A stretch of 64,000 bases of DNA from Somniosus microcephalus (lineage: Eukaryota), in contig CM126208.1 in NCBI GenBank assembly GCA_052327205.1, positions 245,768,001 to 245,832,000 of the forward strand, in the 5' to 3' direction. A model generated the notes under the pieces. The model was not told where the DNA came from. It did not search any database and was given only the letters and a program-made list of their open reading frames with translations. The translations under genes and the position numbers were made by a program. Below, one piece after another: positions 46,421 through 64,000 of this stretch. Within the stretch, counting starts at the first letter, position 1, and every line of letters starts with the position of its first letter.

Positions 46421-49400
46421 TGTTGTGTATGTACCTTTAAGAGAATAACTGGTCTCAGGCTGCAGTACCGGCAGTGACCACCCCTGTATAAAAGGCGCTA
46501 GAGAGCCTCTGTTGGTTAGTTTCGTTTATGCCTTTCACCAGTAAAGACTTGTTTGTTTCTCTCCTGCTAGTCCGTGTCTCAATCATTCACGGACTTAACA
46601 CTGGCGACAAGTTAGAAACGAACTTACCTGCAACTCAGCAGCAGCTCCGACGACGTGTTGAAGGTCGGAGCCAGAAGAAAAAAAAAAATAGGCCATTGAA
46701 ACTCGAGAAACGGGCGTCGACCGTCAATCATCGACTTCAAAACTTGCAGGAGAGACTGTCCAGAGCCAGGCTGGGTTCCTCAGTCCATGGTTTCCCAGCT
46801 AATCGGGCTGGTGGCAGGTAGTGCTCTGATCCTTCCTGGGCTGCAACGGGGCCGGGCAGCGAGTCGGGAAGCAAGGAGAGATAGAGAGGGTGGAGCATAC
46901 AGGGCGCGGCCGGTGTTTCGAAGCTGGGCAGCGTTCGGACCTCAGAAGAGGGAGGGAAGTGTTCCAGAGGGTCCGCTCCATGACGGGAAAATAATAAAAG
47001 AAAAAGAATACGCGCAAGAAACCGTGGAAAGCAGCGCTAACAACAGCGGGGAAGAAGGAAAAGCGCGGGAGGCGCCATTTTGTTAAATCGGAGAAGAAGG
47101 CAAAGCGCGGGAGGCGCCATTTTAGATTTGCAAGATGCCGAAGACTGGCTGTATCACTGCTTTTGATAATACAATAGAGGACTGGACCACGTATGTGGAA
47201 AGAGTCGAGGTATATTTCGAGGCAAATGAAATAGCGGAGGGGAAAAAGGCATCAATATTGCTAAACGTAATGGGCGCTAGAATGTGCGGCCTATTGCGGG
47301 ATCTGATTACTCCAGCCAAACCAAAGGCGAAGAGTTTTAACGAAATTGTTGCTGTTCTACAGGAGCACTTAAACCCTGCACCGCTGTTGATAGCAGAAAG
47401 ATTTAAATTCCACAGGAGAACTCAGCACAAAGATGAGAGCAATGCTAAGTATCTTACGGAACTACGCAAGCTATCAAAGCACTGCCAGTTCGGAGCAGGA
47501 CTGGCAGATACCCTACGGGACAAATTTGTCTGTGGACTCCTGAGTGAAGGAACACAGAAGAAGTTACTCTCAGAGAAAGAGCTGACGCTAGATAAGGCTT
47601 TCAGCGTGGCAGTATCGTATGAAGCAGCAGCCAGGGGAGCTGCAGAAATTCAACAAAAACCACAGGAATACGGCACCCACGAAATGACACGGGGATTTGC
47701 AAAATGTTATCGCTGCGGCAGAACTAACCATGACCAGAAGGACTGCTGGTCCAAAGACAAAATATGCAGACAATGCGGGAAGATTGGACACATTGCACAA
47801 GTTTGTAGGTCTGGGAAGAAGACCAGCGACAACAGAAAGGCTACAAAGGAACCGTACAAGAAAGTACATAAGATGAGCGATAGTGAATCCGAGAACAGGA
47901 GATTAAGCTGTCTCAAACTTCACAATGTAATCTCAAAAGAGGATCACCGAACCATTTGGGTCACCCTCACGATAGCAGGGTCCCAAGTTAAAATGGAATT
48001 GGATACAGGATCAGCGCTAACCGTCATGAATCGACGAGACTATGAGCAGCTATTTTCACACATACCCTTGAGAGAGACATCCATCGTCTTGACGACGTAT
48101 ACGGGGCAAAAAGTATACCCCAGGGGAAAAATAAGGGTGCCTGTCGAATACAATGGCAAGAAATTACGGAAATTGTATCTCTACATACTGCCAAATGGTG
48201 GACCACCGTTATTGGGACGGGAATGGGTCAGGAAGATAAACTTAGATTGGCATTCCATTCATGCAATGACGGTGGACGGTAAAAAAGATGAAGACGTCAC
48301 TCCTGGACGATTGTCAACAATCTTAGCTAACGCCAAAGAGGTATTTCAACAAGAACTGGGCACGCTTAAAGGCGTAACCGCCTCGTTAAAAATAGAAGAG
48401 AATGCAGTTCCCAAGTTTTTCAAAGCGAGACCGGTACCATATGCAATTCGTCCAGCCGTCGAGGCAGAGCTGGAGAATCTGGAGAAGGCGGGCGTGTTGT
48501 CTAAGGTCGACTGGAGCGAGTGGGCAACACCCATCGTTCCTGTCATGAAGAAAACATTAAGCAATAAGTCCGGAGAGCCAAGGAAGATTCGCATCTGTGG
48601 GGATTTCAAGGTGACGGTGAACCCTGTCCTTCACACAGTACAATATCCTCTTCCAAGGATAGAAGACATGTTCGCCTCACTGTCTGGAGGGAAGCGTTTT
48701 ACAAAAATTGACCTAGCACAAGCATATTTGCAGATGGAGGTTGAAGAGTCCTCTAGGAAGTATCTCACGATAAACACTCACAAAGGTCTTTACCAGTATC
48801 ATCGATTGGTATTCGCAGTAGCATCGGCTCCGGCGATATGGCAAAGAGCGATGGAACAAGTCCTGCAAGGGATTCCGGGGACTCAGTGTTACTTGGACGA
48901 CATCCTTGTAACAGGTGAAGATGACAGTGAACACCTTAACAACCTAGAACAGGTGCTCACTAGACTACGGGAACATGGGCTGCGAGCCAACCGCCCCAAG
49001 TGCGAATTTTTTAAGAAACAGATATCGTATTGTGGCCACGTGATTGATGAAGAGGGGTTACATAAGTCCCCTGACAAAATTGAAGCGGTTGTTAAGGCCC
49101 CAGCGCCTGAAAATGTGTCGCAACTGAGGTCATTCCTCGGGTTGGTGAATTAAATTAAGTTTTTGCCGAATTTGTCGACAATTCTGCATCCACTGAACGC
49201 CCTGCTATGAACGGGGGTAGCATGGAAATGGAGCGATGATTGTAAACGTGCTTTTCAGAAGAGTAAGGACTTAATCACTTCAAGGGAAGTATTGGCTCAC
49301 TACAACCCAGCACTGCCAATCAGGCTGGCGTGTGATGCGTCTCCCTACGGCATTGGGGCGGTACTGTCACATAAATTCCTTGATGGTTTGGAGAGGCCGA

Positions 49401-51351
49401 TAGCTTTTGCGTCACGCTCGTTAACTTCTGCCGAGCGTAACTACGCCCAGATTGACAGAGAGGCCCTCACCCTAGTGTGGGGGGTGAAGAAGTTCAATCA
49501 CTATCTGCACGGTCAAAAATTTACTCTACTAACCGATCATCAACCTCTTGTCTCCATTTTCAACCCTCAGAAGGGCGTACCGATAATGACAACACAACGG
49601 CTGCAGAGATGGTCCCTTTTCCTAGGGGCACACCAATATGACATCGAGTACAGGGGAACTAAACAGCATGGAAATGCTGATGGATTGTCACGTCTACCGT
49701 TGCCGACGGTGGAAGAAGGAAACCTTGCAGTGGATCCAATGGAGTTATTCCACTCGACCATAGTCGAATGTCTCCCTGTGACGAATGCAAACATAGAAAA
49801 GGAAACACGGAATGACCCGACACTATCACGGGTCTATGATTTAACGGTGAAGTGATGGCCAGCACATGGCGAACCACTGCTGCCAGCATTTTCGCCAAGA
49901 AGAGAACAGCTGTCAGCGTGCAGAGGAACCTTGATGTGTGGATCCAGAGTAGTAATTCCACCTAAGTTGACGGATAGAGTGCTCAATGAGCTTCATGAGG
50001 GTCATCTGGGTGGGGTAAAAATGAAAAGCTTAGCCAGAGCGTTTGTGTGGTGGCCGGGAATCGATAGAGAAATCGAAGAGATGACCAAGAGCTGAGCAGG
50101 ATGCCAGAAGGTCCAAAACGCCCCACCACAAGCTCCTCTGCATCCATGAGAGTGGCCCTCATCTCCATGGCAAAGGGTGCACATTGATTTTGCTGCTCCC
50201 TTCATGGACTCGATGTTTTTAATTGCGGTGGATGCACATTCAAAGTGGCCAGAGGTAATAAAAATGTCCTCAACCACCACGGAAAAAACTATCACAGTTT
50301 TACGAACCATATTCGCCAGGAATGGGCTGCCTGAACAGATTTGCTCTGACAATGGACCACAGTTTGTGTCTGAAGAGTTCCGGAGGTTCTTAAAGAACAA
50401 TGGCGTTAAGCATTACACATCTGCCCCATATCATCCAGCCACTAATGGATTGGCCGAGAGGTTTGTCCAAACATTCAAGAAGGCTATCAAGGCAATGTGT
50501 AATGAAGATATACCCCTACAACACAAGGTGGACAACTTTTTGTTTGCCTACCGGAATGCGACACATGCGGTTACCAACCAAACTCCAGCCATGATGTTCT
50601 TCAATCGAAGACTACGATGCCGCTTGGATTTGGTTTAGCCAAACGTCCAAAGAGATGTGGAGAACAGGCAGTTTCAGAATATGAATGAAAGGCCGACCAG
50701 GAGTTTTAAGATAGGTCAACCAGTTTTGGCCCGGGACTACCGCACTGAGAAATGGCAGCCAGGAACGATTTGTACACGACAAGGACCTCTCATGTATACC
50801 GTGGACGTTGGGGAGAGCATTGTAAGACGCCATGCTGACCAGATTCTAGAGTCACTGGAAAACGTCAACTCCACACCACGATCTGATACACCTGGTAATG
50901 AAATCGACGTTCCAATTGCAGCTACCGCAGAACCGGTAATATTGCACGCAGATGAACCAAACAACGACATTGATTCCGACTCAACATTGCCAGAAGAACC
51001 TAATACTCCAAAGAGGCGTTATCCAGACAGAATCAGGAAGCCTCCTCAAAGACTGAACTTATAATTGCTTAAACTTAACCAATGTATCTAGCAACAGTAA
51101 TTGTGATTGTAATTCGTTATCATTAGTTGTTAAATGAATGTTATGTACTGTTTATCTAAAAGGGGAGGAATTGTTGTGTATGTACCTTTAAGAGAATAAC
51201 TGGTCTCAGACTGCAGTACCGGCAGTGACCACCTCTGTATAAAAGGCGCTAGAGAGCCTCTGTTGGTTAGTTTCGTTTATGCCTTTCACCAGTAAAGAGT
51301 TGTTTGTTTCTCTCCTGCTAGTCCGTGTCTCAATCATTCACGGACTTAACA
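46421..51351 (+). mobile_element. Full-length Ty3/Gypsy (Mag-like) LTR retrotransposon
   Basis: 180-bp LTRs at 46421-46600 and 51172-51351 (3 differences). 5-bp TSD GACAC. PBS TGGCGAC. PPT aaaaggggagga. Confidence 0.96.
47135..51064 (+). pseudogene. Single-frame gag-pol (2x CCHC, protease LDTGS, RT YLDD, RNaseH CDAS, integrase HIDFA/SDNG/ERF) with several premature stops
   Basis: ORF pieces 47135-49153, 49292-49855, 50177-50638 and 50657-51064 are all in the same frame, separated by stop codons. Ends RRYPDRIRKPPQRLNL*. Confidence 0.93.
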
Positions 51352-52782
51352 GACACTAGAGAACAATTAAACAGGTCTTTACTCCATGGAGGTGCCACGA
51401 GGACTCCCTGGGTGGTCCTGTGGTTTGCGACGTGACATCATCGCGTTTGCCCGTGTTTTCCCGCGCTCTTAAAGGGGCCACGCCCCGTACATGCAAACTC
51501 TATATACAAAACACAGTAATGCTTAACACAATGGTACAGGTTTAGGCTGGTGTTAGAACATCATTAAAGAGAATTATATACAGTTAGCCAGAGTCATTCA
51601 GTGGTTCTGCCACAAGCTCAGAGTTTTTGAGCTGGAGTATGAGGTGCAGACATTGCAGGGCATCAGGGATGGGGAGAGATACCTGGACACTTTGATCCAG
51701 GAGGCAATCACAGGTTAGGTAGTGGTACAGGTCGGGTTAGTGGTCAGGGACAGGAGGGTGTGACTGCAACTCAGGCAGGTAAGGAGACCTCAGGTGCAGT
51801 ACTGCAGGAACCTCAGCCTTTGCCCTTGTCCAACAGGTATGAGGGAAAAGCCTGCAGGATGGATGAGCAAGCTGACCATGGTGCAGGAGGCCTTTCAAGT
51901 GGGGGGAGTGAAAGGGAATGTAGTTGTGGTAGGGGACAGTATAGTCAGGGGAATAGATACTGTTCTCTGCAGCCGCAACCAAGAGTTTCAAAGGTTGTGT
52001 TGTCAGCCTGGTGCCAAGGGCTAAAGACATCTCCTCGCGGCTGGAGGGGAACTTGGGGTGGGAGGGGGAGGATCCAGTTGTCGTGGTCCACGTAGGAACT
52101 AATGACATAGGTAGAACTAGGAATGAGGTTCTGCTGAGGGAGTTTCAGGAGCTAGGATCCAAATTAAAAAGCAGAACCTCAAAGGTAAAAATCTCTGGAT
52201 TGTTACCTGAGCCAAGGGCAAATTGGCCTAGGGACAAACAGAGTAGAGGTTTAAATGCGTGGCTCAAAGAGTGGTGTGGCATGAAGGGGTTTCAGTTCAT
52301 GGGGCACTGGCACCAGTACTGGGGAAAGAGGGAGCTGTTCCGTTGGGATGGGCTCCACTTAAACCGGGCTGGGATCAGTGTCCTGGCGAACCGAATAATG
52401 AGGGCAGTAGACAGGGCTTTAAACTAATGAAGCGGGGGGGGGGCGGTAGGAGGATTCAGGAAAGAGTAAATTTAAAAGCAGCGAGAGAAATGTCAAGGCT
52501 CTAGAGCAGAGTAGAGTTTTGGGTAAAAATAAGCAGAGTGGGTCAGGAAGGGACAGAGAGAGTAACAAAGGTAATAAGACATCAGTGACTAAGGTGACAT
52601 CAGGGAAAAAGAGAAATAAGTGGTAAGATTTGTTTTTGTTCTGTTTGAGTATATTTCTGCTAAGTAGATCATAGCCTATCTAATAGAGGGAAGTGCTGAT
52701 TGGTGGGTAGCTGTTGAGTGTTTCTTGTTAAGTTTTAAGTTTATTTCTGCTAAATTAACTCCATAGTCTTGGTGATAGAGGC

Positions 52783-54112
52783 ATGGCAGGGCAGCTCAGT
52801 CCTGTGATTTGCACATTCTGTGCCATGTGGGAAATCTTGGACGCTTCTTGCGGCCTGGACGCCCACGTGTGCAGGAAGTGTCGCCAACTGCAGCAACTCG
52901 AGCTCCAGGTTTCGGAGCTTGAGCGGCAGCTGGAGTCACTACAGTGCATCCGCGAGGCTGAGAAATACTTGGAAAGCACCTTTCTAGAAGTGGTCACCCC
53001 GCAGCCTCAGAATGTGTATGCAGAGGGGAAATGGGTGACCGCCAGACAGAAAAGGAGGACCTGGCAGGTAGGGCAGGAATCCCCAGAGTGCATCTCGCTC
53101 GCTAACCGGTTCACAGTTCTGGAAACTGGTGGGGGTGATGGTTCCTCCGGGGATTGCAGCCAGAGCCAAGGCCACGGCACCAAGGGTGGCTCAGCTGCAC
53201 AGGGGTGGAGGAAGAAGAGTGGGAGAGCAATAGTGATAGGGGATTCATTGGTTAGGGGAAAAGATAGGCATTTCTGTGGACGCAGACGTGACTCCAGGAT
53301 GGTATGTTGCCAGGTGCCAGGGTCCAGGATGTCACTGAGCGGCTGCAGGACACTCTGAGGGGGGAGGGTGAACAGCCAGAGGCCGTTGTCCATATCGGTA
53401 CCAACAACATAGGCAGAAAGAGGGATGAGGTCCTGCAGGCAGACTATAGGGAGCTAGGCGAGAGATTAAAAAGCAGGACCTCAAAGGTAGTAATCTCCGG
53501 ATTACTTCCGGTGCCACGTGCTGGTGAGTACAGGATTCGGAGGATAGAACAGATGAATGCATGGCTGGAGAGATGGTGCAGGAGGGAGGGTTTTAGATTC
53601 CTGAGGCATTGGGATCATTTCTGGGGAAGGTGGGACCTGTACAAGCCAGATTGGTTACATCTCAACAGAGCCGGGACCAATATTCTCACGGGGAGGTTTG
53701 CTAGTGCTGTTGGGGAGGGTTTAAACTTGCTTGGCAGGGGGATGAGCACCAGCATATAGGAGTAGAAAAGATGAATAAGGCGCATAAAAGAGTTCGTGTG
53801 TTGGATAGCACTAGAGAAGAAAGTAGTACTAGAGGCGGTAGTAGTACCATATTAGAGAGGAGCAGACTAAGAAACACTACGAAAAATTCAAAAATGGGTT
53901 TTGAATGCATGTTCGTAAACGCACAAAATGTGGTGAATAAAGTTGGTGAGCTACAAGCACAATTAACCATGTAGCAATATGATGTTGTGGCAATAACGGA
54001 AACGTGGCTTAAAAACAGTGAGAACTGGGCACTTAGTATTCAAGGGTACAAGGAGTTCAGGAAAGATAGTGAAGGATAAAAGGGAGGTGGGATGGCAGTG
54101 CTGATTAAGGAA
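52783..54112 (+). pseudogene. Second CR1 LINE 5' portion: ORF1 (esterase, frameshifted) and start of ORF2 endonuclease
   Basis: VICTFCAMWE...HVCRKCRQL, IVIGDSLVRG, VHIGTNN, PDWLHLN, then FVNAQNVVNKVGEL...VAITETWL. Confidence 0.85.
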
Positions 54113-54115
54113 TAA

Positions 54116-54199
54116 TGTAAGAAGTCACACAACACCAGGTTATAGTCCAACAGCTTTATTTGAAATCACAAGCTTTCGGAGCGCTGCTCCTTCTTCAGG
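54116..54199 (-). mobile_element. Penelope-like element terminal fragment with minimal hammerhead core
   Basis: Minus strand CTGAAGA-aggagc-agc-gctcc-GAAA-GCTT-gtgatttcaAATAAA. Confidence 0.65.
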
Positions 54200-54264
54200 A
54201 AGACATGTCCTAATTCTTCCATTTACATATGGCTGCCACTGAGAGACTGGGCACTTCTTAAAAA

Positions 54265-55390
54265 CCTAAGAATTAGGAGCAGGAGTCGGCCATACGGTCC
54301 CTCGAGCCTGCTCCGCCATTCAATAAGATCGTGGTGATCTTCGACCTCAGCACTTTCCCACCCGACCCCCATATCCCTTGATTCCCCGAGTCCAAAAATC
54401 TATCTATCTCAGCCTTGAATACACTCAACAATTCAGCATCCACAGCCCTTTGGGGTAGAGAAGTCCAAAGATTCACAATCCTCTAAGGGAAGAAATTCCT
54501 CCGCAGCTCAGTCTTAAATGGCCGACCCCTTCTCCTGAGACTATGCCCTCTAGTTCTAGACTCCCCAGCTAGGGGAAACAACCTCTCAGCATCTACCCGG
54601 TCAATCCCCTTCAGAATCTTACATGTTTCAATGAGATCATCTCTCATTCTTCTAAACTCCAGAGAGTAGAGGCCCAATCTACTCAATCTCTCCTCATAGG
54701 ACAGCCCTCTCATCCCAGGAATCAATCTAGTGAACCTTTGTTGCACCACCTCTAATGCAAGTATATCCTTCCTTAGACAAGGAGACCAAAACCGTGCGCA
54801 GTACACCAGGTGTGGTCTCACCAAAGCCCTGCACAATTTTAGCAAGACTTCCTTACTCTTGTACTCCAACCCCTTTGCAATAAAGGCCAACATGCCATTT
54901 GCCTTCCTAATTGCTTGCTGTACCTGCTTGCTAACTCTGCGTTTCCTGTACGAGGACACCTAAACCTCTCTGAACACCAACATTTAATAGTTCCTCACCA
55001 TTTAAAAAATATTCTGTTTTCCTATTCTTCGTAGCAAAGTGAATAACCTCACATTTCCCCCACATTATATTCCATCTGTCACCTTATTGCTCACTCACTT
55101 AACCTGTCTACATCTCTTTGCAGACTCTTTGTGTCCCCCTCACAGCTTGCTTTCCCACCTAGCTTTGTATTGTCAGCAAACCTGGATACATTGCACTAGG
55201 TCCCTTCATCTAAGTCATTAATATAGATTGTAAATAGCAGAGACCCCAACACTGATCCTTGCGGCACCCCGCCAGTTACAGCCTGCCAACTGACCCGTTT
55301 ATCCAAATTCTCTGTTTTTTGTCCATTAACCAATCCTCAATCCATGCTAATATATACCCCCAACCCCATGAGCCCTTATCTTGTGTAAAC
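54265..55390 (-). mobile_element. CR1 LINE 3' fragment
   Basis: KANGMLAFIAKGLEYKSKEVLLKLCRALVRPHL...RTRGHSL. Confidence 0.9.
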
Positions 55391-56103
55391 CCACCCTGAA
55401 ACCTGCTGGAAACTTGGTGGATCCTGTCCCTCCTCTCCACCATACAGGTGCAAATCCCAATTTAAGCCTTGCCCCAACCCCAAGAATTTCAGGGTCTGGG
55501 AAGGAGCGAGATGCATTCTAGTGATCACTGATCTTTCAGTCTGAAACCAACTTAGGAAAATTGGTGCAGTTTTATTGTGGCTTTTTTAATTGTGATTCCC
55601 AATCATTTTTGCACATATCAAATCAATACACCTTTTACTAAATTATAAATGTTCTGATTTTTGACGTGATTGAGTAGTCTGCTTCTACACCCCACCTCCC
55701 CCTCACCCCACATCCTTATCTAGCAATAGCAGAGACCCATTCATACCGGAAGACAGAGCAAATCACGATAGGGTAGATACTCTGATGTGAATACTCTCTT
55801 CAGTTCCCACTCTGAGAATTCTGTCACCAGTGCCACTGACCTCATTTTTCACTTGCTGGAGAGAAGGCTTCACTGAGACTGCTACTCTCAGACTTCTGGT
55901 GTGTAAAAATCGTTTAAACTACGTAATTTTCCATCTGGAAAATTTTACGGGTTATTTAACGTTCAGTTCTTCTCAATAGCTAATGTGACCATGTTTCATT
56001 CTCATTGAAGAGCCATAGGCCTAGAAATTCAGTTGCTTGCGCCACCAGTTTGTGCCCAAAGAGGCCACTCAGAGGCTTTAGCGCCTCTGGCCACAACCAC
56101 CGC

Positions 56104-59100
56104 TGTTAAGTATGTGTATTGTATTGAACAATTAACACAAAGACTTAAACGTATAACTCAAACAGGTCTTTACTGGTTGGAGGTAGGGACTATACTGAAT
56201 ACAAGATTACTGCACAGTGCTTATATACCGGTGTGTTCACCCCCGGTATTACGTCTACAGCAGCCTGAGAAAGTAGTACATCTCTTAAGGTGGAACAGGC
56301 TTAAGCTCTCTTAAGGTGGAACAGGTTACATACACAACACTCCTCCCTTCTTAGCTTTATAGTCATCCCCCCATTTAACATAACGTAATAACATATATAC
56401 ATATATAACTTCATGTTTAACGTAACATATCACAGATTCAGTCTCTGCGGAAAACAGTTCACAGATTCAATCTCTACGAACAGTTGCAACATACTCTTAG
56501 TGGGAACAGTTTACAGGTTCAGTCTCTGTGGGAACAGTTCGTAAATTCAGTCTCTGATCTTAATTCGTTCCAGACAGCATCTTTTCGTAGTGTTCGGCCG
56601 GAGGTAGTAGAAGTAACAATATTTTAAACAATTATTATTTTCGGCCTCTTCTTTTTCTTTTCTGCCTTTTTACAACTCTTGTCGTTCCCATCTTCTCGGC
56701 GGACAGCTGTAATGCTACCAACTCTCTATGTTCTTTAGACCTTAAGTGCTTCCTCCGGATTTCAACACTTTGGGAGTTTCCATCACAATTTGGGCATACC
56801 ACATCCTCGTAGTATTCACTATCACTCAACAGGTCGAGAGGCCCTTCTACTTCTTCCTTACCCAACTGGACGCTATCCGACTGCTGTTCCTTCTCTATCT
56901 CTCTTACTTCCCGTAGTAGAGCCACCTTCTTCCGATGTTCCGTAGACTTTTGGTGCTCCTCCATGATTTCTGCACTTTGGGGGTCGAAGTTACAAGCTGG
57001 GCAGGACAGGACATCGTAATATTCGGAGTCGTCCGACAGGTCATGGTAATATTCGGTGTCGTCCTGAGCTAGGCCAGCGAGAGGGTCGTCTATTTCCTCC
57101 ATACCCAGCTGGACGTTAGCCAGCTCTTGTTCCAAATCCAGACATCTTTCCTGAAGAGACTTCTTCATGTGTACCTCTGCATCCAGCTTTTTCTGGGCTT
57201 TCAGCAAGTCGTTTACTAGTGACCTCATTTGTGATTTTAATACTTCAACTTCCTTTGGAGATTGATTGCTCGGACTATGCAGTCCCTCTACCGGAGCAGC
57301 TGTTTCAGCGGTCTGTTGTTCTACATTGACGTGAGTCAGCGTACTTTTGGCATCCAATGGCTGCTCTGTTGCAGTCGTTTCAGTCTGTGTCGTCACATCA
57401 GCCATCTCAATGACTTTTGAGAGCTCCGAACCCTTTTCCTTTGAAGATCGCAGCTCGTGTTCAAGTTTTTCCCATTTCAGAGTCTTGTCCCTCAGCATAT
57501 GAAGGAGTTGGCTGACCGTTAACTCTTCTGACACCAGATTATGGCACGCACCTTCAGAACCTGAATCAGCTTTGATTCGTTCGGCCTCCTCGCGCAGATG
57601 GTTGGTGTGCTCCTGCTCCATTTTCTCCATCAGTTGCTTCTGTTGCCTTTCCAGATTCTCCCACTCTGTAACAAAGAACTTTTTTATTTCATTCATCTCT
57701 TGCTCAAAACGGCGAATCATTTGTTCTAATTGCTGTTGTAGTTTGAAATGGAGTTGAGTTCGAGCCCAGTGTCCCTCAAAAATGTGCATATCAGTAGACT
57801 TGACAGACTCAGAATTCTCTGTTAAACTATGTTGTTGTTGCTCAGTGGAATTCTGTGCTGAAACTTTGTCTTTTGCACATGGGTTGGTCTTACCATCATC
57901 AGTTCTAGAGTCTGGGCTGATTATCTGCACCGAGTTCTCACTCTTTATGGCTTTTAGCGAATGCCAGTCCATATTTATGTTTCTAAACCACTCCCGGCCT
58001 AGTAGTGGTGGACCTCCCTCCGGTAGCACATATAAGTCCATTATTTGACTTCCTTCGCCCTTGTTGGCCACTGCAACCTTTATTGTCCCGATGGGGTACA
58101 CTCTCTGCCCCGTGTAGGTTGTCAATATAATCTCCGTATCCTGTAGGGGAATATGTTGGAATAACCTTCTGTAATCTTTCTTATTCATGACCGACAATGC
58201 CGATCCAGTGTCCAATTCCATTTTTACTTGGACTCCTTCTATCTGAAGAGTAACCCAAATTGTCTGGAGGTCTGCACCCTTACCAACGTTGAGTACCCTT
58301 AAGCTAGCCAGTTCAATACTGCTTGCGTCTGAATCGGACTCCTGTTCGGCCACCTTGTGTACCTTTGCGTATTTTCCTTGCGGTGACTTCTTGTTGCTGG
58401 TCTTCTTCCCTGACCTGCATACTCTAGCTATATGTCCAAGCCTACCACAAGTTCTACATTCTTGGTTTTTAAACCAACACTGGTTCTGATCATGCGTTGT
58501 CTTTCCACAACGATAACATTTAACAGAACTCACACCCAATTTGTGTGCACTGAGCTCCAGTGACCGTAGCTGCATTACTGCCATGCCTCTCGCTGCGGCT
58601 TCGTGTGCTGCTGCCATAGTGACCGCCTTCTCAAGCGTCAGCTCATTCTCCTCGAGCAGTCGCTTTTGTGTATCCTGTTTAAATAAACCACACACAAATT
58701 TGTCTCGTAGTGCATCTGTCAGTCCCGTTCGAAACTGGCAATATTTCGCTAATTTACGCAATTCCAGCAAATATTCAGCATTGCTTTCATGCTGTAGCTG
58801 CCTTCTGTCGTAAAATTTAAATCGTTCCGCTAGCATCAGCGGCGTGGGGTTTAGATGATCTTTCAGGACAGTAACAATCTCATCGAACGTCTTATCCGCC
58901 GGTTCATCTGGTGATAACAGGTGTTTCAATTGCCCGTATGTCTTCGCACCCATTAAATTTAATAATGTTAGTGCTTTATCAGCCTCGCGAATTTTATTGG
59001 CCTTACAATAATTTTTAACTCGTTCAACATATATGGCCCAATCTTCGATGTCACTATCAAAGTTGCTAATATTCCCGTGTTTAGGCATTGTAGTACTTTA

Positions 59101-59906
59101 TCAGATTTGCAATTTCTCAGATTTTTTTTTTTTTTACTGCTATCCAAGATGGCGGCTTCCCGCTCTTGCCGTCGTCCTCCGCCCACAAAATGGCGGTTTT
59201 CCCGCGCTTGGCGGTCTTCACCCGTCCCCCGACGCCGTCTCCCTTCAGCCCCGAGTGCGGCCCTTATCTCCGCCGCGATCGATGGCCCGCGCTTTTCACC
59301 GCGGCTCTCGCACCTTCAGTGTCTGCCGACGCTGCGCCTTTCAGCCCGAGTGCGGCCCTTATCAGGGATTTCGATCGATGGCCCGGCTGCGCCTCGCACT
59401 TGAAAGCGGCCCGGCCCTTATCAGTGCTTGCGATCGATGGCCCGGCTGCGTCCCTCACTTCAAAGCGGCCCGGCCCTTATCTGCCGATCGCTATCGCCCT
59501 GTACCTCTCTCTTCCCCAGTCCTGTCTTCTACTCCGGTTCACAAGCTGATGGAGGCTTCAGGGTCCTAATGCCTGTCGCTTCCAGTGGGGTGGTGAGTGG
59601 TGAGGTTTGAAACCTCTCTTCAACCGCCGTGGAATAACTGCCGCAGGGTAAGAACCTGACTCGTCGCCAGTGTTAAGTATGTGTATTGTATTGAACAATT
59701 AACACAAAGACTTAAACGTATAACTCAAACAGGTCTTTACTGGTTGGAGGTAGGGACTATACTGAATACAAGATTACTGCACAGTGCTTATATACCGGTG
59801 TGTTCACCCCCGGTATTACGTCTACAGCAGCCTGAGAAAGTAGTACATCTCTTAAGGTGGAACAGGCTTAAGCTCTCTTAAGGTGGAACAGGTTACATAC
59901 ACAACA
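56104..59906 (-). mobile_element. Young non-autonomous Gypsy LTR element carrying captured host coding fragments
   Basis: Identical 236-bp LTRs at 56104-56339 and 59671-59906. PBS TGGCGACGAG next to the 5' LTR. PPT aagaagggagg next to the 3' LTR. No RT, RNaseH or integrase core. Confidence 0.95.
56635..59088 (-). CDS. Chimeric 817-aa Gag-protease fused to STK10/SLK-like, optineurin-like and 2x DNAJC21-like zinc-finger segments
   Basis: aa 1-380 are colinear with Gag-PR of the 47135 element (two [18 protein letters not shown]). aa 438-507 is a PKK coiled coil. aa 508-656 contains EELTVSQLL...TQTE...MKKSLQERC. aa 659-817 has two CPxC...H...H fingers and a basic tail. Uninterrupted ORF. Confidence 0.9.
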
Positions 59907-61402
59907 CTCGCGATATTTAGCGGGGCGCTAATGGCGGCGTTAGCCTGTAGTGCTGCGCCGCCACCGATTATGTCATCAGTGTGCGCAGCGCCCCGCTACC
60001 GCCCCGAGCGCCATATTAGGTCGCGCCCGCCTCTTCCGCGCCGGCCGCAAATAGCGACCGGTACACAGGGGCCTACCTGTGGCGGTAGTGGGGCGAGTTA
60101 AGGTGGAGGTGCGGCCGACCGCTTTTTCGGCGGCCGCCTGCCCGCACCTCCGTCCCCGGCCTCCTACACCCCCCCCCCCGCGGCATTGCCGGCTGTTTCC
60201 CGAGAGCCCGGCACTTCTCCTTGGTGCCGGGCTCATTTGCCGGCACTCGCGAGCGGGGATCGCGCTGTTGCAGGCACCTCCCCCTTAACAGTGGGCGGAA
60301 GGCCTGCAGTACCATAGCCTGCCGTGCCGCAGCGGGTGGCGCTGCGGCACTTTGCGCGCCGATATTCAGTTTCAGCGCCCCAAGCGGGGCGCCGAAAGCC
60401 TTGTGTAGCGGCCGGCTTCCACTTGGGGCACTGAAACTGAATATCCCGATGGCGCAAGTGGCTCCGCGCGCAGCGGTAATTCCGGCGCCCAGGCGAGCTG
60501 GGCGCCCCAAACTGAATTTTTAGCCCAGAATGAGTTCACTATTGTGATGTTCTGTTCACACTTAGAAGTAATTTCCTCAACACACATACATGCAAACTCA
60601 CACTATGACACTCTTAAGCAAGAATCAGGTCCCTTTAATGGCCACATAACGAATAATGAAGTTCTAGTCTGTTTCCTATTGCAGATATGTCCATTGTTTT
60701 ACGTAAAATGGAAGCGTGTTCAACAAGCTGAACTGTCTGAGAACTGTGCTAAATTTGTGGGATGTAGACATAACACCATCGTGCAGCTGGGGGTGGGAAT
60801 TGGGTGCTCTATGATGTTCTTCTACTTGACCTCCTGAGTGTAAACACTGAACTACATGCAAAAGTAACACTATGTATACACACAGATGGTTGCATTGAAC
60901 TTTGAAGCTTGGATTACGGGGTGGTCAAGTATATATTTTAAAAAATGGCCAAAGACTGGAAATCTGAAAAGAAAAAGATGCTGGCATCACGGAGCTAGGC
61001 CCATCAGTAAAAATGCAATTTCCAGCAATTTCTGTGGTTGTTATGCTAACTGGAGCTTGTCACTACAATCAAAAGGATTGGAATTCTGGGTTATTTAAAG
61101 CCTCAGTTATATAGCCACTTTCATGTCTATGCAAAGTCACTTCAGCCATGCAGCAAAGCTCTGGAGTCAAGCACTGATAGGACTCTGAAGCACAATAGAA
61201 CTGGAGCAATATGAGACCATCTGGGCTTGGGCTAGACTCCGTGTGAAACCCAGTTTTAAAAGTGCTCAGGAAGTCCACTGGACCTCTTGGGCACTTTACA
61301 AACTTACGGCAGAACCATTTTTAAGGTTATGGGAAAGTGGATATTCCTGCCCGCGCTCTCCTAACATTAGAAAAAGTGCTGTGGCAACAGGACTCTCTCC
61401 TA

Positions 61403-64000
61403 AAAACATAGAAACATAGAAGATAGGAGCAGGAGTAGGCCATTCGGCCCCTCGAGCCTGCTCCGCCATTCAATGAGATCATGGCTGATCATCCAAATTC
61501 AGTACCCTGTTCCTGCCTTCTCTCCATACCCCTTGATCCCTTTAGCCTTAAGAAATATATCCAACTCCTTCTTGAATATATTTAATGAATTGGCCTCTGC
61601 TGCCTTCTTTGGTAGAGAATTCCACAAGTTCATCACTCTCTGGGTGAAGAAATTCCTCCTCATCTCTGTCCTAAATGGCTTACCCCTTATTCTTAGACTG
61701 TGACCCCTGGTTCTGGACTCCCCGACCATCGGGAACATCCTTCCTGCATCTAGTCTATCTAGTCCTGTTAGATATTTATAAGTTTCAATCAGATGCCCTC
61801 TCATTCTTCTAAACTCCAGCGAGTACAAGCCCAATTGACCCACTCTCTCCTCATTCGTCATTCCTGCCATCCCAGGTATCAGCCTTGTGAATCTTCGCTG
61901 CACTCCTTCCATGGCAAGAACATCCTTCCTCAGATAAGGCGACCAAAACTGCACACAATACTCAAGATGTGGTCTCACCAAGGCCCTGTACAACTGCAGC
62001 AAGACATCCTTGTTCCTGTACTCAAACCCTCTCGCTACGAAAGCCAACATACTATTTGCCTTCTTAACCGCCCGCTGCACCTGCATGCTTACCTTCAGCG
62101 ACTGGTGCACAAGGACGCCCAGGTCTCATTGCTCTTCCCCTTCTCCCAATCTATGGCCATTCAGATAATAATCTGCCTTCTTGTTTTTGATACCAATGTG
62201 GATAACCTCGCATTTATCCACGTTATATTGCATCTGCCATGCTTCTGCCCAATCACCCAACCTGTCCAAATCATACTGGAGTTTCTCGGCATCCTCCTCA
62301 CAGCACACACGCCCACCCAGCTTTGTGTCATCTGCAAACTTGGAGATATTACATCTAGTTCCCTCGTCCAGATCATTAATATGTATTGTGAATAGTTGGG
62401 GTCCAAGGACCGATCCCTGCGGTACCCCACTAGTCACTGCCTGCCACTCGGAAAAAGAGCCGTTTATTCCAACTCTTTACTTTCTGTCTGCCAACCAGTT
62501 CTCTATCCAAGTCAATACCTTGCCCCCAATCCCATGTGCCTTAACTTTACACGCTAATCTCTTATGCGGGACCTTATCGAAAGCCTTTTGAAAGTCCAAA
62601 TACACCACATCCGCTGGTTCTCCCTTATCTATTTTACCAGTTACATCCTCAAAAAATTCCAGTAGATTAGTCAAGCACGATTTACCTTTTGTAAATCCAT
62701 GTTGACTTTGTCCGATCCGGTCACTGTTTTCCAAGTGCTCTGCTATTACATCTTTTATAATGGACTCCAGCATTTTCCCCACTACCGATGTCAGGCTTAC
62801 CGGTCTGTAATTCCCTGTTTTCTCTCTACCACCTTTTTTGAACAGTGGGGTAACATTAGCTACCCGCCAATCCATGGGTACTGTTCCAGAGTCTATCAAA
62901 TTTTGGAAGATGACCAGCAATGCATCCACTATTTCTAGGGCCACTTCCTTAAGTACCCTAGGATGTAGATTATCAGGCCTTGGGGATTTATCGGCCTACA
63001 ATCCCGTCAATTTCCCTAACACCATTTCCCTACAAATACTGATTTCTATCAGTTCCTCCCTTTCATTAGACCCTATGTTCCCCGACATCTTTGGGAGGTT
63101 ATTTGTGTCCTCCTTTGTGAAGACAGAACCAAAGTATGTATTTAATTGGTCAGCCATTTCTTTGTTCCCCATTATAAATTCCCCTGATTCTGACTGCAAG
63201 GGACCTACGCTTGACTTCACCAATCTTTTTCTCTTCACATATCTATAAAAGCTTTTACAGTCAGTTTTTATGTTCCCTGCAAGCTTACTCTCATACTCTA
63301 TTTTCCCCCACTTAATTAATCCCTTTGCCCTCCTTTGTTGAATCTTAAACTGCTCCCAATCCTCAGGTTTACTGCTTTTTCTGGCCAATTTATATGTCCT
63401 CTCCTTGGATCTTATGCTATCCCTAATTTCCCTTGTTAGCCACGGTTGAGTCACCTTTTTTGTTTTATTTTTATGCCAAACTAGGATGAACAAATTCTGT
63501 ATTTCATCCATGCGATCTTTGAATGTTTGCCATTCCCTATCCACCGTCAACCCTTTAAGTGACATTCCCCAATCAATCGCGCCTCATACCATCGTAGTTT
63601 CCTTTATTTAAATTCAGGACCCTAGTCTCTGAGTCAACTACTTCACTCTCCATCTTAATGAGAAATCCTATCATATTATGATCGCTCTGACCCAAGGGGC
63701 CTCGCACAACAAGATTGCTAATTAATCCTTTCTCGTTACATAATACCCAGTCTAAGATGACCTGATCTCTAGTTGGTTCCTCGACATATTGGTCCAGGAA
63801 ACCATCCCGTATACACTCTAGGAATTCCTCCTCCACAGAATTGTTACTAATTTGGTTAGCCCTATCTATATGTAGATTAAAGTCACCCATGATAACTGCT
63901 GTGCCCTTATTGCACGCTTCTCTAATTTCCCTTTTAATGCCATCCCCGACCTCCGCATTATTGTTTGGAGGTCTATATACCACTCCTACTAACGTTTTCT
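61403..64000 (-). mobile_element. Relatively young CR1 LINE, ORF2 (endonuclease-RT) with a few frameshifts, continuing beyond the window
   Basis: [48 protein letters not shown]. 3' (CTATGTTT)n tail. Confidence 0.95.

What the first reader, a model, noticed from the sequence alone, without database searches (positions are those of the whole stretch)
57568..57777. Captured STK10(LOK)/SLK coiled-coil (PKK domain) segment
[70 protein letters not shown] aligns without gaps to the recalled STK10 stretch ([40 protein letters not shown]) and SLK stretch (EQEHTNRLRDEAKRIK). The kinase domain is not included. It could act as an oligomerisation or cortical-targeting module, or as a dominant-negative decoy (inference).
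Basis: partly seen in the sequence, partly recalled or inferred. Interest (0 to 1): 0.75.

Follow-up and report, generated by a model that had tools for sequence, protein, structure and literature searches.

The report
Shark retrotransposon carrying spliced STK10 fragment
The stretch is a real, spliced scrap of the host kinase gene STK10 inside a young, high-copy jumping gene of what is likely a shark; it is what remains of one turn of a back-spliced, likely circular, STK10 RNA that replaced the element's copying enzymes, and it likely serves as replaceable in-frame filler rather than as a kinase decoy.

Summary
Confirmed: 57568-57777(-) is STK10 PKK coiled coil (Pfam E 1e-13; 59/71 aa to host STK10, 61% to a ray SLK). 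It lies in the 817-aa ORF of a 3.8-kb non-autonomous Gypsy element with identical LTRs, gag and protease but no RT or integrase. The piece crosses host exons 11/12 without the intron, and microhomologies bound it, not exon ends. It is one of several captures, with other STK10, optineurin and DNAJC21 pieces. Sister copies hold STK10 exons 9-12 joined to exons 8-9 at an exact back-splice: one 1,245-nt turn plus 14 nt, replacing pol. Exact probes give 899 back-splice copies and 1,588 window-type copies. Captured codons show moderate purifying selection (dN/dS 0.34-0.57), and family RNA is sense-stranded in one of two runs. The decoy idea is weak: 71 residues, radical substitutions, and a sister lineage swaps most of the piece for CGNL1. 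All lineages end in a K/R-rich C-terminus drawn from three sources. Precedents: mouse circRFWD2 copies beside an ERV, and maize Bs1. This scan reported the same family earlier on other DNA of this genome.

The parts
59671..59906 (-). 5' LTR (TG...CA, 236 nt)
   Evidence: 100% identical to the 3' LTR
59660..59669 (-). primer-binding-site-like word directly after the 5' LTR
   Evidence: position shown; similar word after the LTR of the full-length relative; tRNA partner not tested
56635..59088 (-). 817-aa ORF: gag, protease and host-derived cargo in one frame
58414..59088 (-). Gypsy gag with two CCHC knuckles
   Evidence: Pfam zf-CCHC E 0.002, below cut-off; 64% nt to the gag of the full-length relative
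57982..58254 (-). aspartyl protease
   Evidence: Pfam gag-asp_proteas E 6e-5, below cut-off; same place in the full-length relative
57778..57945 (-). two pieces of STK10 exon 9 (linker), joined by an in-frame deletion
   Evidence: 94% and 90% nt to host exon 9; junction
57691..57777 (-). 3' part of STK10 exon 11 (first half of the finding)
   Evidence: 95% nt over 88 nt; exon end at 57691
57566..57690 (-). 5' part of STK10 exon 12 (second half of the finding), spliced to exon 11, ending in a 9-nt microhomology with optineurin
   Evidence: 88% nt over 119 nt; the 1,029-nt host intron is absent
57091..57574 (-). optineurin pieces: start of coding exon 3, then exons 5-8 spliced; the stretch holding the DSFVEI motif is deleted
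   Evidence: 70% aa to a shark optineurin, E 3e-47; 77-94% nt to host exons
56638..57090 (-). DNAJC21-derived C2H2 finger region, duplicated, ending in a K/R-rich tail
   Evidence: hits to skate and shark DNAJC21; less diverged versions in sister copies; internal duplication; host exon itself not found
56340..56352 (-). polypurine tract
56104..56339 (-). 3' LTR
46421..51351 (+). full-length but broken Gypsy relative (gag-PR-RT-RH-IN); shows which part of pol the cargo replaced
   Evidence: LTRs 98% alike; RT, RNase H and integrase by Pfam; 5-bp target duplication

Best explanation
The PKK stretch is a spliced STK10 exon 11/12 remnant inside the single gag-protease-cargo ORF of a young, high-copy, non-autonomous Gypsy element; it descends from a back-spliced exon 8-12 copy that likely came from a circular RNA copied by template switching, and it likely persists as replaceable helical filler that keeps the frame open to a basic C-terminus, not as an STK10 decoy. 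SHOWN: spliced origin; exact exon 12-to-8 junction in sister copies; replacement of RT, RNase H and integrase; later in-frame deletions and captures (OPTN, DNAJC21, and CGNL1 in a sister line); a step in identity between gag-protease and cargo; many copies with near-identical LTRs; moderate purifying selection; K/R-rich C-termini from three sources. INFERRED: the circle was packaged in a particle and copied once round until RNase H damage to the template forced a second switch; the cargo later moved onto a second gag-protease and LTR backbone; RT and integrase come in trans; the element needs its own translation through to a basic, NLS-like end; the cargo is selected mainly for solubility, helix and frame. 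Odds: capture history about 0.9, circular-RNA origin about 0.8, filler function about 0.5.
For: Back-splice: exon 12 donor joined exactly to exon 8 acceptor. The 30-nt junction word is present with at most 1 mismatch in 12 of 12 type A loci and at most 3 in 13 of 14 DNAJC21-carrying loci. Exons 8-12 sum to 1,245 nt, open frame; type A cargo is 1,259 nt, starting and ending in the same 14 host bases. Exons 8 and 12 occur once in the 120 kb of host locus fetched. The flanks match the post-protease linker and the integrase C-terminus of the full-length relative. Exact-probe counts are 899, 1,588 and 186 places, controls 0. LTR pairs were 98-100% alike in 18 of 20 fetched copies, 13 of those 18 with perfect 5-bp target duplications. 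Captured codons, window against host: 272 codons, dN/dS 0.34-0.57; 49 changes against 59.8 expected with stops already excluded, P 0.004. Identity to older types is 65-86% in gag-protease and 86-95% in the cargo bins. At least 5 K/R in the last 15 residues: 21 of 29 scored type C, 8 of 11 type A, 10 of 12 type B and 9 of 14 DNAJC21-carrying loci, against 5% of cargo windows. CGNL1 replaces most of exon 12 in a sister line. Run X18 has 514 against 16.5 depth over the PKK bin, the direction that means ORF-sense in most stranded libraries.
Against: No host circSTK10 RNA was shown, and element RNA would mimic it. The window copy has lost the back-splice junction, so its circular origin rests on shared junctions with sister copies. 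Only 1 of 12 PKK changes hits the 25 strictly invariant columns (4.2 expected, P 0.03), which leans towards STK10-like constraint, though mean conservation of changed sites is no lower than unchanged (P 0.27). PKK alone is borderline in the simulation (12 against 15.1, P 0.087). Microhomologies of 6-9 nt are in frame 44-85% of the time by chance, so in-frame junctions are weaker evidence than 1 in 3 each, and my protein searches favoured in-frame copies. 42 of 150 listed copies have frames under 700 aa (my count). Run X19 is balanced between strands (82.6 against 82.3), and both RNA runs carry a species label not shown to be this genome's. No helper with the window's backbone was found. No protein evidence exists.
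Confidence: 0.68

Rival explanations
1. The STK10 piece is a selected functional module: a dimerisation or cortical-targeting helix, or a dominant-negative decoy of STK10/SLK.
For: Exon 11 and the start of exon 12 survive in every type examined while exon 10 and much of exon 9 were lost. PKK dN/dS is 0.25-0.48, and 1 of 12 changes falls in invariant columns. SLK dimerises through this coil (PMC5419656, passages). The LOK C-terminus localises to microvilli and acts as a dominant negative (PMC3518218, passages). The single-sequence model makes residues 422-508 one helix, pLDDT 71-93 by block over most of it.
Against: The piece is 71 residues against the 383-residue active fragment. Changes such as R>W, K>I, D>V and L>W are seen in 0 of 33 homologues. 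A sister line keeps only 35 nt of exon 12 before CGNL1. Linker exon 9 and optineurin pieces show similar dN/dS overall, so the constraint is not PKK-specific.
Confidence: 0.15
2. The cargo is a neutral passenger, or matters only as RNA length for packaging. The open frame reflects young copies and codon-biased microhomology.
For: In-frame microhomology bias. Large parts are deleted or swapped freely. STK10 exon 8-9 remnants lie out of frame after the stop in many type C copies. Element lengths stay at about 3.5-4.5 kb.
Against: There is a deficit of amino-acid changes after excluding stops (P 0.004). All four zinc ligands are kept in both window fingers while 11 and 14 of the 19 other positions changed (my count). 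Basic C-termini arise from three sources.
Confidence: 0.12
3. The permuted exon order came from a linear RNA (trans-splicing, or a tandem exon duplication in an ancestral STK10 allele), not from a circle.
For: Non-colinear junctions can arise by other routes (PMC4897178, whole text). No circle was observed directly.
Against: There is one copy of exons 8 and 12 in the host region. No sequence from exons 7 or 13 appears in the copies aligned, and the cargo starts and ends at the same 14 host bases, one turn apart.
Confidence: 0.1

Closest known systems
Mouse circRFWD2-derived pseudogenes (Dong et al. 2016, PMC4897178; whole text read, supplements searched by term)
   Same: Back-splice junction copied into DNA, many copies (33 high-confidence), shown beside MMERVK10C-int LTR-element sequence.
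   Different: Described there as pseudogenes with the mechanism called mysterious. Here both switch points are visible, the cargo is one turn plus 14 nt in place of pol, it is in frame with gag-protease, under selection, and at least 899 copies carry the junction.
LTR-mediated retrocopies in metazoans (Tan et al. 2016, PMC5131818; abstract, 12 passages and section 6 read)
   Same: Internal ORFs replaced by partial mRNAs, microsimilarity at switch points, multi-gene chimeras (a mouse locus with four genes), further rounds of retroposition, often in frame.
   Different: The word 'circ' does not occur in its main text. Here the intermediate stages survive as large subfamilies, with a likely backbone swap and measurable constraint.
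Maize Bs1 (seen only as passages in PMC5131818 and PMC13317346; PMC2899935 not held)
   Same: LTR element with pieces of three host genes forming one chimeric ORF.
   Different: One to five copies per Zea species, one piece out of frame, no circular-RNA origin mentioned in those passages.
STK10/LOK-SLK C-terminal (PKK) domain (PMC3518218, PMC5400502, PMC5419656; passages)
   Same: Sequence origin and predicted helix.
   Different: About half of one of two PKK repeats, no kinase, 12 of 71 residues changed; activity not shown.

Membership tests
Ty3/Gypsy LTR retrotransposon, non-autonomous | Paired TG...CA LTRs with PBS and PPT | tested here: met
   the tRNA partner of the PBS was not tested
Ty3/Gypsy LTR retrotransposon, non-autonomous | Target-site duplication | tested here: inconclusive
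   window copy 3 of 5 bases; 13 of 18 sister copies with LTR pairs have perfect 5-bp duplications
Ty3/Gypsy LTR retrotransposon, non-autonomous | Descent from an element with PR-RT-RH-IN order; own RT and IN missing | tested here: met
   relative at 46421-51351; no RT or IN hit in the ORF
Ty3/Gypsy LTR retrotransposon, non-autonomous | Mobilised in trans by an intact helper | tested here: inconclusive
   one probe for a pol-bearing copy with the window's backbone found only a cargo-bearing variant
LTR-mediated retrocopy (Tan et al. type) | Introns absent, partial mRNA replaces internal ORF | tested here: met
LTR-mediated retrocopy (Tan et al. type) | Microsimilarity at switch points | tested here: met
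   shared words at the STK10/OPTN, OPTN/STK10, CGNL1 and deletion junctions; direct parents of the two pol junctions not in hand
circRNA-derived retrocopy (Dong et al. high-confidence class) | Non-colinear junction at exact splice sites | tested here: met
   met in sister copies, 12 of 12 and 13 of 14 loci; the window copy has lost it, as in Dong's low-confidence class
circRNA-derived retrocopy (Dong et al. high-confidence class) | Only circle-resident exons present | tested here: met
   exons 8-12 only in the copies aligned
circRNA-derived retrocopy (Dong et al. high-confidence class) | The parent circRNA is expressed | not tested
   no reads were laid on the host gene; no paper on circSTK10 found
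STK10/SLK PKK domain | Pfam PF12474 above cut-off, closer to STK10 than SLK | tested here: met
STK10/SLK PKK domain | Complete domain | tested here: not met
   profile positions 1-58 of 139; STK10 has two such stretches
STK10/SLK PKK domain | Dimerisation, apical targeting, ERM binding | not testable with these tools
   needs cell or binding assays

The most novel reading that the evidence does not exclude
A vertebrate LTR element threw away pol for exactly one turn of a host circular RNA and has since used serial RNA capture as an evolving accessory gene. The cargo protein (coiled coils, a fast-changing zinc finger with fixed ligands, and a basic end) is selected for the element's own spread and was carried over to a second backbone. 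This is transduction in the manner of acute retroviruses, but maintained over thousands of germline copies.
Probability: 0.3. Interest if true: 0.85.

Novelty: new variant of a known kind. Interest (0 to 1): 0.68.

Why it matters
Dong et al. left the route from circular RNA to DNA open. This family shows both switch points, a one-turn-plus-14-nt cargo and the later stages side by side, so the LTR template-switch route becomes directly testable. It is also a vertebrate Bs1-like system at over a thousand copies, where one can ask why a non-autonomous element keeps a long fused frame. In practice these copies will appear as false STK10, OPTN, CGNL1 and DNAJC21 paralogues and as false circRNA reads in these genomes.

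Tried and rejected
DNA search of the own genome with the stretch returned nothing, not even itself (common words are skipped). PDB sequence searches gave only weak generic hits, E 0.045 or worse. A homologue search of the tail within 449-1430 aa found nothing; the HMMER search did. The protein atlas gave no answer. The zinc-finger exon of host DNAJC21 was not found: only coding exons 1-4 lie in the 120 kb fetched, and a search with a shark piece returned 150 best matches, of which the 14 read were element copies. Complex prediction of the piece with the STK10 C-terminus: no verdict, score 0.02 against a mark of 0.34. The single-sequence fold (mean pLDDT 61, pTM 0.28) shows helices only and was not searched further. 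The indel tally was not used: the alignment was unreliable and the copies were pre-selected. The optineurin dN/dS used a wrong frame and was replaced. Scripts 51 and 72 stopped on errors, so type A dN/dS covers 7 of 12 loci and the per-region comparison 2 of 8. Positive selection on the finger (dN/dS about 3) is not significant (P 0.09-0.17). No indexed holder is on record as RNA. A second optineurin circle was considered: the capture starts 8 nt into exon 3 and ends about 8 nt before the end of exon 8, but no back-splice is kept, so it stays open. SLK origin was rejected. Ten literature searches listed no paper on this element; subscription journals and Repbase or Dfam were not searchable, and the supplements of Tan et al. 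were not read.

Full report
Observation. The peptide is residues 438-507 of an 817-aa minus-strand ORF at 56635-59088. Pfam gives PKK at E 1e-13, covering profile positions 1-58 of 139. It is 59/71 identical to the genome's own STK10, 75-79% to shark and ray STK10s and 61-64% to SLKs. The host is likely a shark: the best named hits for STK10, optineurin and CGNL1 are all shark proteins.

Anatomy. The ORF lies between 236-nt LTRs that are 100% identical, with a PBS-like word and a polypurine tract. It encodes gag, two CCHC knuckles and a protease, but no RT or integrase. After the protease come two pieces of STK10 exon 9, the exon 11/12 piece of the finding, optineurin exon 3 and exons 5-8, and a duplicated DNAJC21 zinc-finger region ending in a basic tail. 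Exon numbers are my count of coding exons at the host loci in G000. A broken full-length Gypsy relative at 46421-51351 has RT, RNase H and integrase where the cargo now lies.

The ends of the finding. They are not exon borders. The 5' end is a 4-nt microhomology deletion from exon 9 into exon 11, and the 3' end is a 9-nt microhomology with optineurin exon 3. The exon 11/12 junction lies at 57691/57690, with the 1,029-nt intron gone. The source was therefore spliced RNA.

Ancestry. A search with whole STK10 returned 47 scored copies with residues about 376-704, nearly all followed by a match starting at residue 290. In these type A copies the order is exon 9 (part), 10, 11, 12, 8, 9 (part), at 97-100% identity to host exons in the two copies aligned. 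Exon 12's donor is joined exactly to exon 8's acceptor. The junction word is in 12 of 12 type A loci and 13 of 14 DNAJC21-carrying loci; an exact 20-mer occurs at 899 places. Exons 8-12 total 1,245 nt with an open frame. The cargo is 1,259 nt and begins and ends in the same 14 host bases. It is flanked by the post-protease linker and the integrase C-terminus. I infer one round of reverse transcription on a circle. RNase H cleaving the template behind the polymerase (textbook knowledge, no call) would stop the enzyme after about one turn. Type B adds the exon 9-11 deletion and optineurin exons 3-8, including the DSFVEI motif that I recall as its LC3-binding site. Other copies add DNAJC21 inside exon 8, and 11 of those 14 loci have most of exon 12 replaced or lost, the insert being CGNL1 at 91% to a shark protein. 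The window's type C has further deletions. Its gag-protease is only 65-86% identical to the older types while the cargo bins are 86-95%, and its LTR is 72-78% identical, which suggests the cargo moved to a second backbone.

Numbers and age. An exact 28-mer over the window-type exon 11/12 junction occurs at 1,588 places, and a 24-mer of the second finger at 186. All 150 scored matches to a 77-aa probe were 100% identical, from 16,580 first-look candidates. LTR pairs were 98-100% alike in 18 of 20 fetched copies. Indexed runs of three coded species labels hold half or more of the words.

Selection. Against host exons the 272 captured codons give dN/dS 0.34-0.57 across kappa 1-6. A simulation that already forbids stops expects 59.8 amino-acid changes and 49 are seen (P 0.004). 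PKK alone gives 0.25-0.48, simulation P 0.087. Gag and protease give 0.06-0.30 against types A and B, but across the likely swap. Host-lineage change adds little, since type A is within dS 0.013-0.027 of the host in the 7 of 12 loci computed. In PKK, 1 of 12 changes hits an invariant column (P 0.03), yet 9 of 12 are residues seen in none of 33 homologues. The fingers keep all four ligands while most other positions changed. Each lineage tends to end in a K/R-rich motif: the native integrase end (type A), a different, more basic end following the same integrase-derived motif (type B), or the DNAJC21-derived basic stretch (type C). Counts are 8 of 11, 10 of 12 and 21 of 29 scored loci, against 5% background. 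Ty1 integrase has a C-terminal nuclear signal (PMC2490736, abstract); that such a signal works here is inference. Against over-reading the frame: chance microhomologies are already 44-85% in frame at 6-9 nt, and my searches favoured in-frame copies.

Expression. Two raw RNA runs cover all 30 bins of the element. X18 is strongly one-directional, 514 against 16.5 over PKK, which is ORF-sense in most stranded libraries. X19 is balanced. These are family reads from a species label not shown to be this genome's.

Mechanism. I commit to capture by template switching, first from a likely circular RNA, followed by serial remodelling. The PKK piece is best read as helical filler in a frame that must stay open to a basic end (about 0.5). 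A dedicated STK10 decoy is less likely (0.15). The dominant-negative LOK fragment is residues 586-968 (PMC3518218, passages), this piece is 71 residues with radical changes, and a sister line replaced it. A purely neutral passenger (0.12) does not explain the substitution deficit.

Comparison. It works like the LTR-mediated retrocopies of Tan et al. and like maize Bs1, and its ancestor meets the junction test for circRNA-derived copies of Dong et al., whose circRFWD2 copies are drawn beside MMERVK10C-int sequence. Each ingredient is therefore known. The combination is what I did not find in ten searches of the held library: one-turn replacement of pol, in-frame fusion under selection, preserved intermediates and over a thousand young copies. 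Five earlier reports of this scan describe what appears to be the same family on other pieces of this genome. I had noted the circle idea before that look-up and tested it here. Verdict: new variant of a known kind, interest 0.68.

Noticed in passing
window 46421-51351 (+): Full-length Gypsy relative with 98% alike LTRs and a 5-bp target duplication; pol is split over several frames. Its gag is 64% nt to the finding's element.
   Followed up: partly
window 56099-56103 and 59907-59911: The target duplication differs at the two bases next to the 5' LTR, and those two equal the last bases of the polypurine tract; perhaps an unprocessed cDNA end was integrated. Reads from three runs show the empty site in the flanking repeat.
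   Followed up: partly
window 56018-56043 and 60501-60526; 60361-60445: Inverted repeats around the insertion suggest the element sits inside a non-autonomous DNA-transposon-like repeat.
   Followed up: no
L086 (G000 C17, host OPTN coding exons 5 and 6): Host optineurin has two single extra bases relative to the element copies and other sharks, breaking its frame: likely assembly errors, or a damaged allele.
   Followed up: partly
L055 (G000 C3:354.66 Mb): Intronless copy of the STK10 C-terminal end (226 aa, 97% to a shark STK10), a separate retrocopy next to repeat DNA.
   Followed up: partly
L098-L109 (G000 C1:2.56-2.68 Mb): Only coding exons 1-4 of host DNAJC21 were found; the rest may be missing from the assembly or lie further away.
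   Followed up: partly
L069 (host STK10 intron 10): The exon 10 donor appears to be a GC-AG intron.
   Followed up: no
window 56638-57090 (-): The first DNAJC21-derived finger went from 6 basic and 2 acidic residues to 1 and 5, with nearly all changes non-synonymous but the ligands fixed; the second finger is basic again.
   Followed up: partly
L111-L117, L119-L122: Sister lineage with a 214-aa CGNL1 coiled-coil insert inside STK10 exon 12; three of the four captured genes supply coiled coils.
   Followed up: partly
window 52000-55000 and 61500-64000: Broken ORFs that resemble CR1/L2-type LINE proteins (label recalled, not searched).
   Followed up: no
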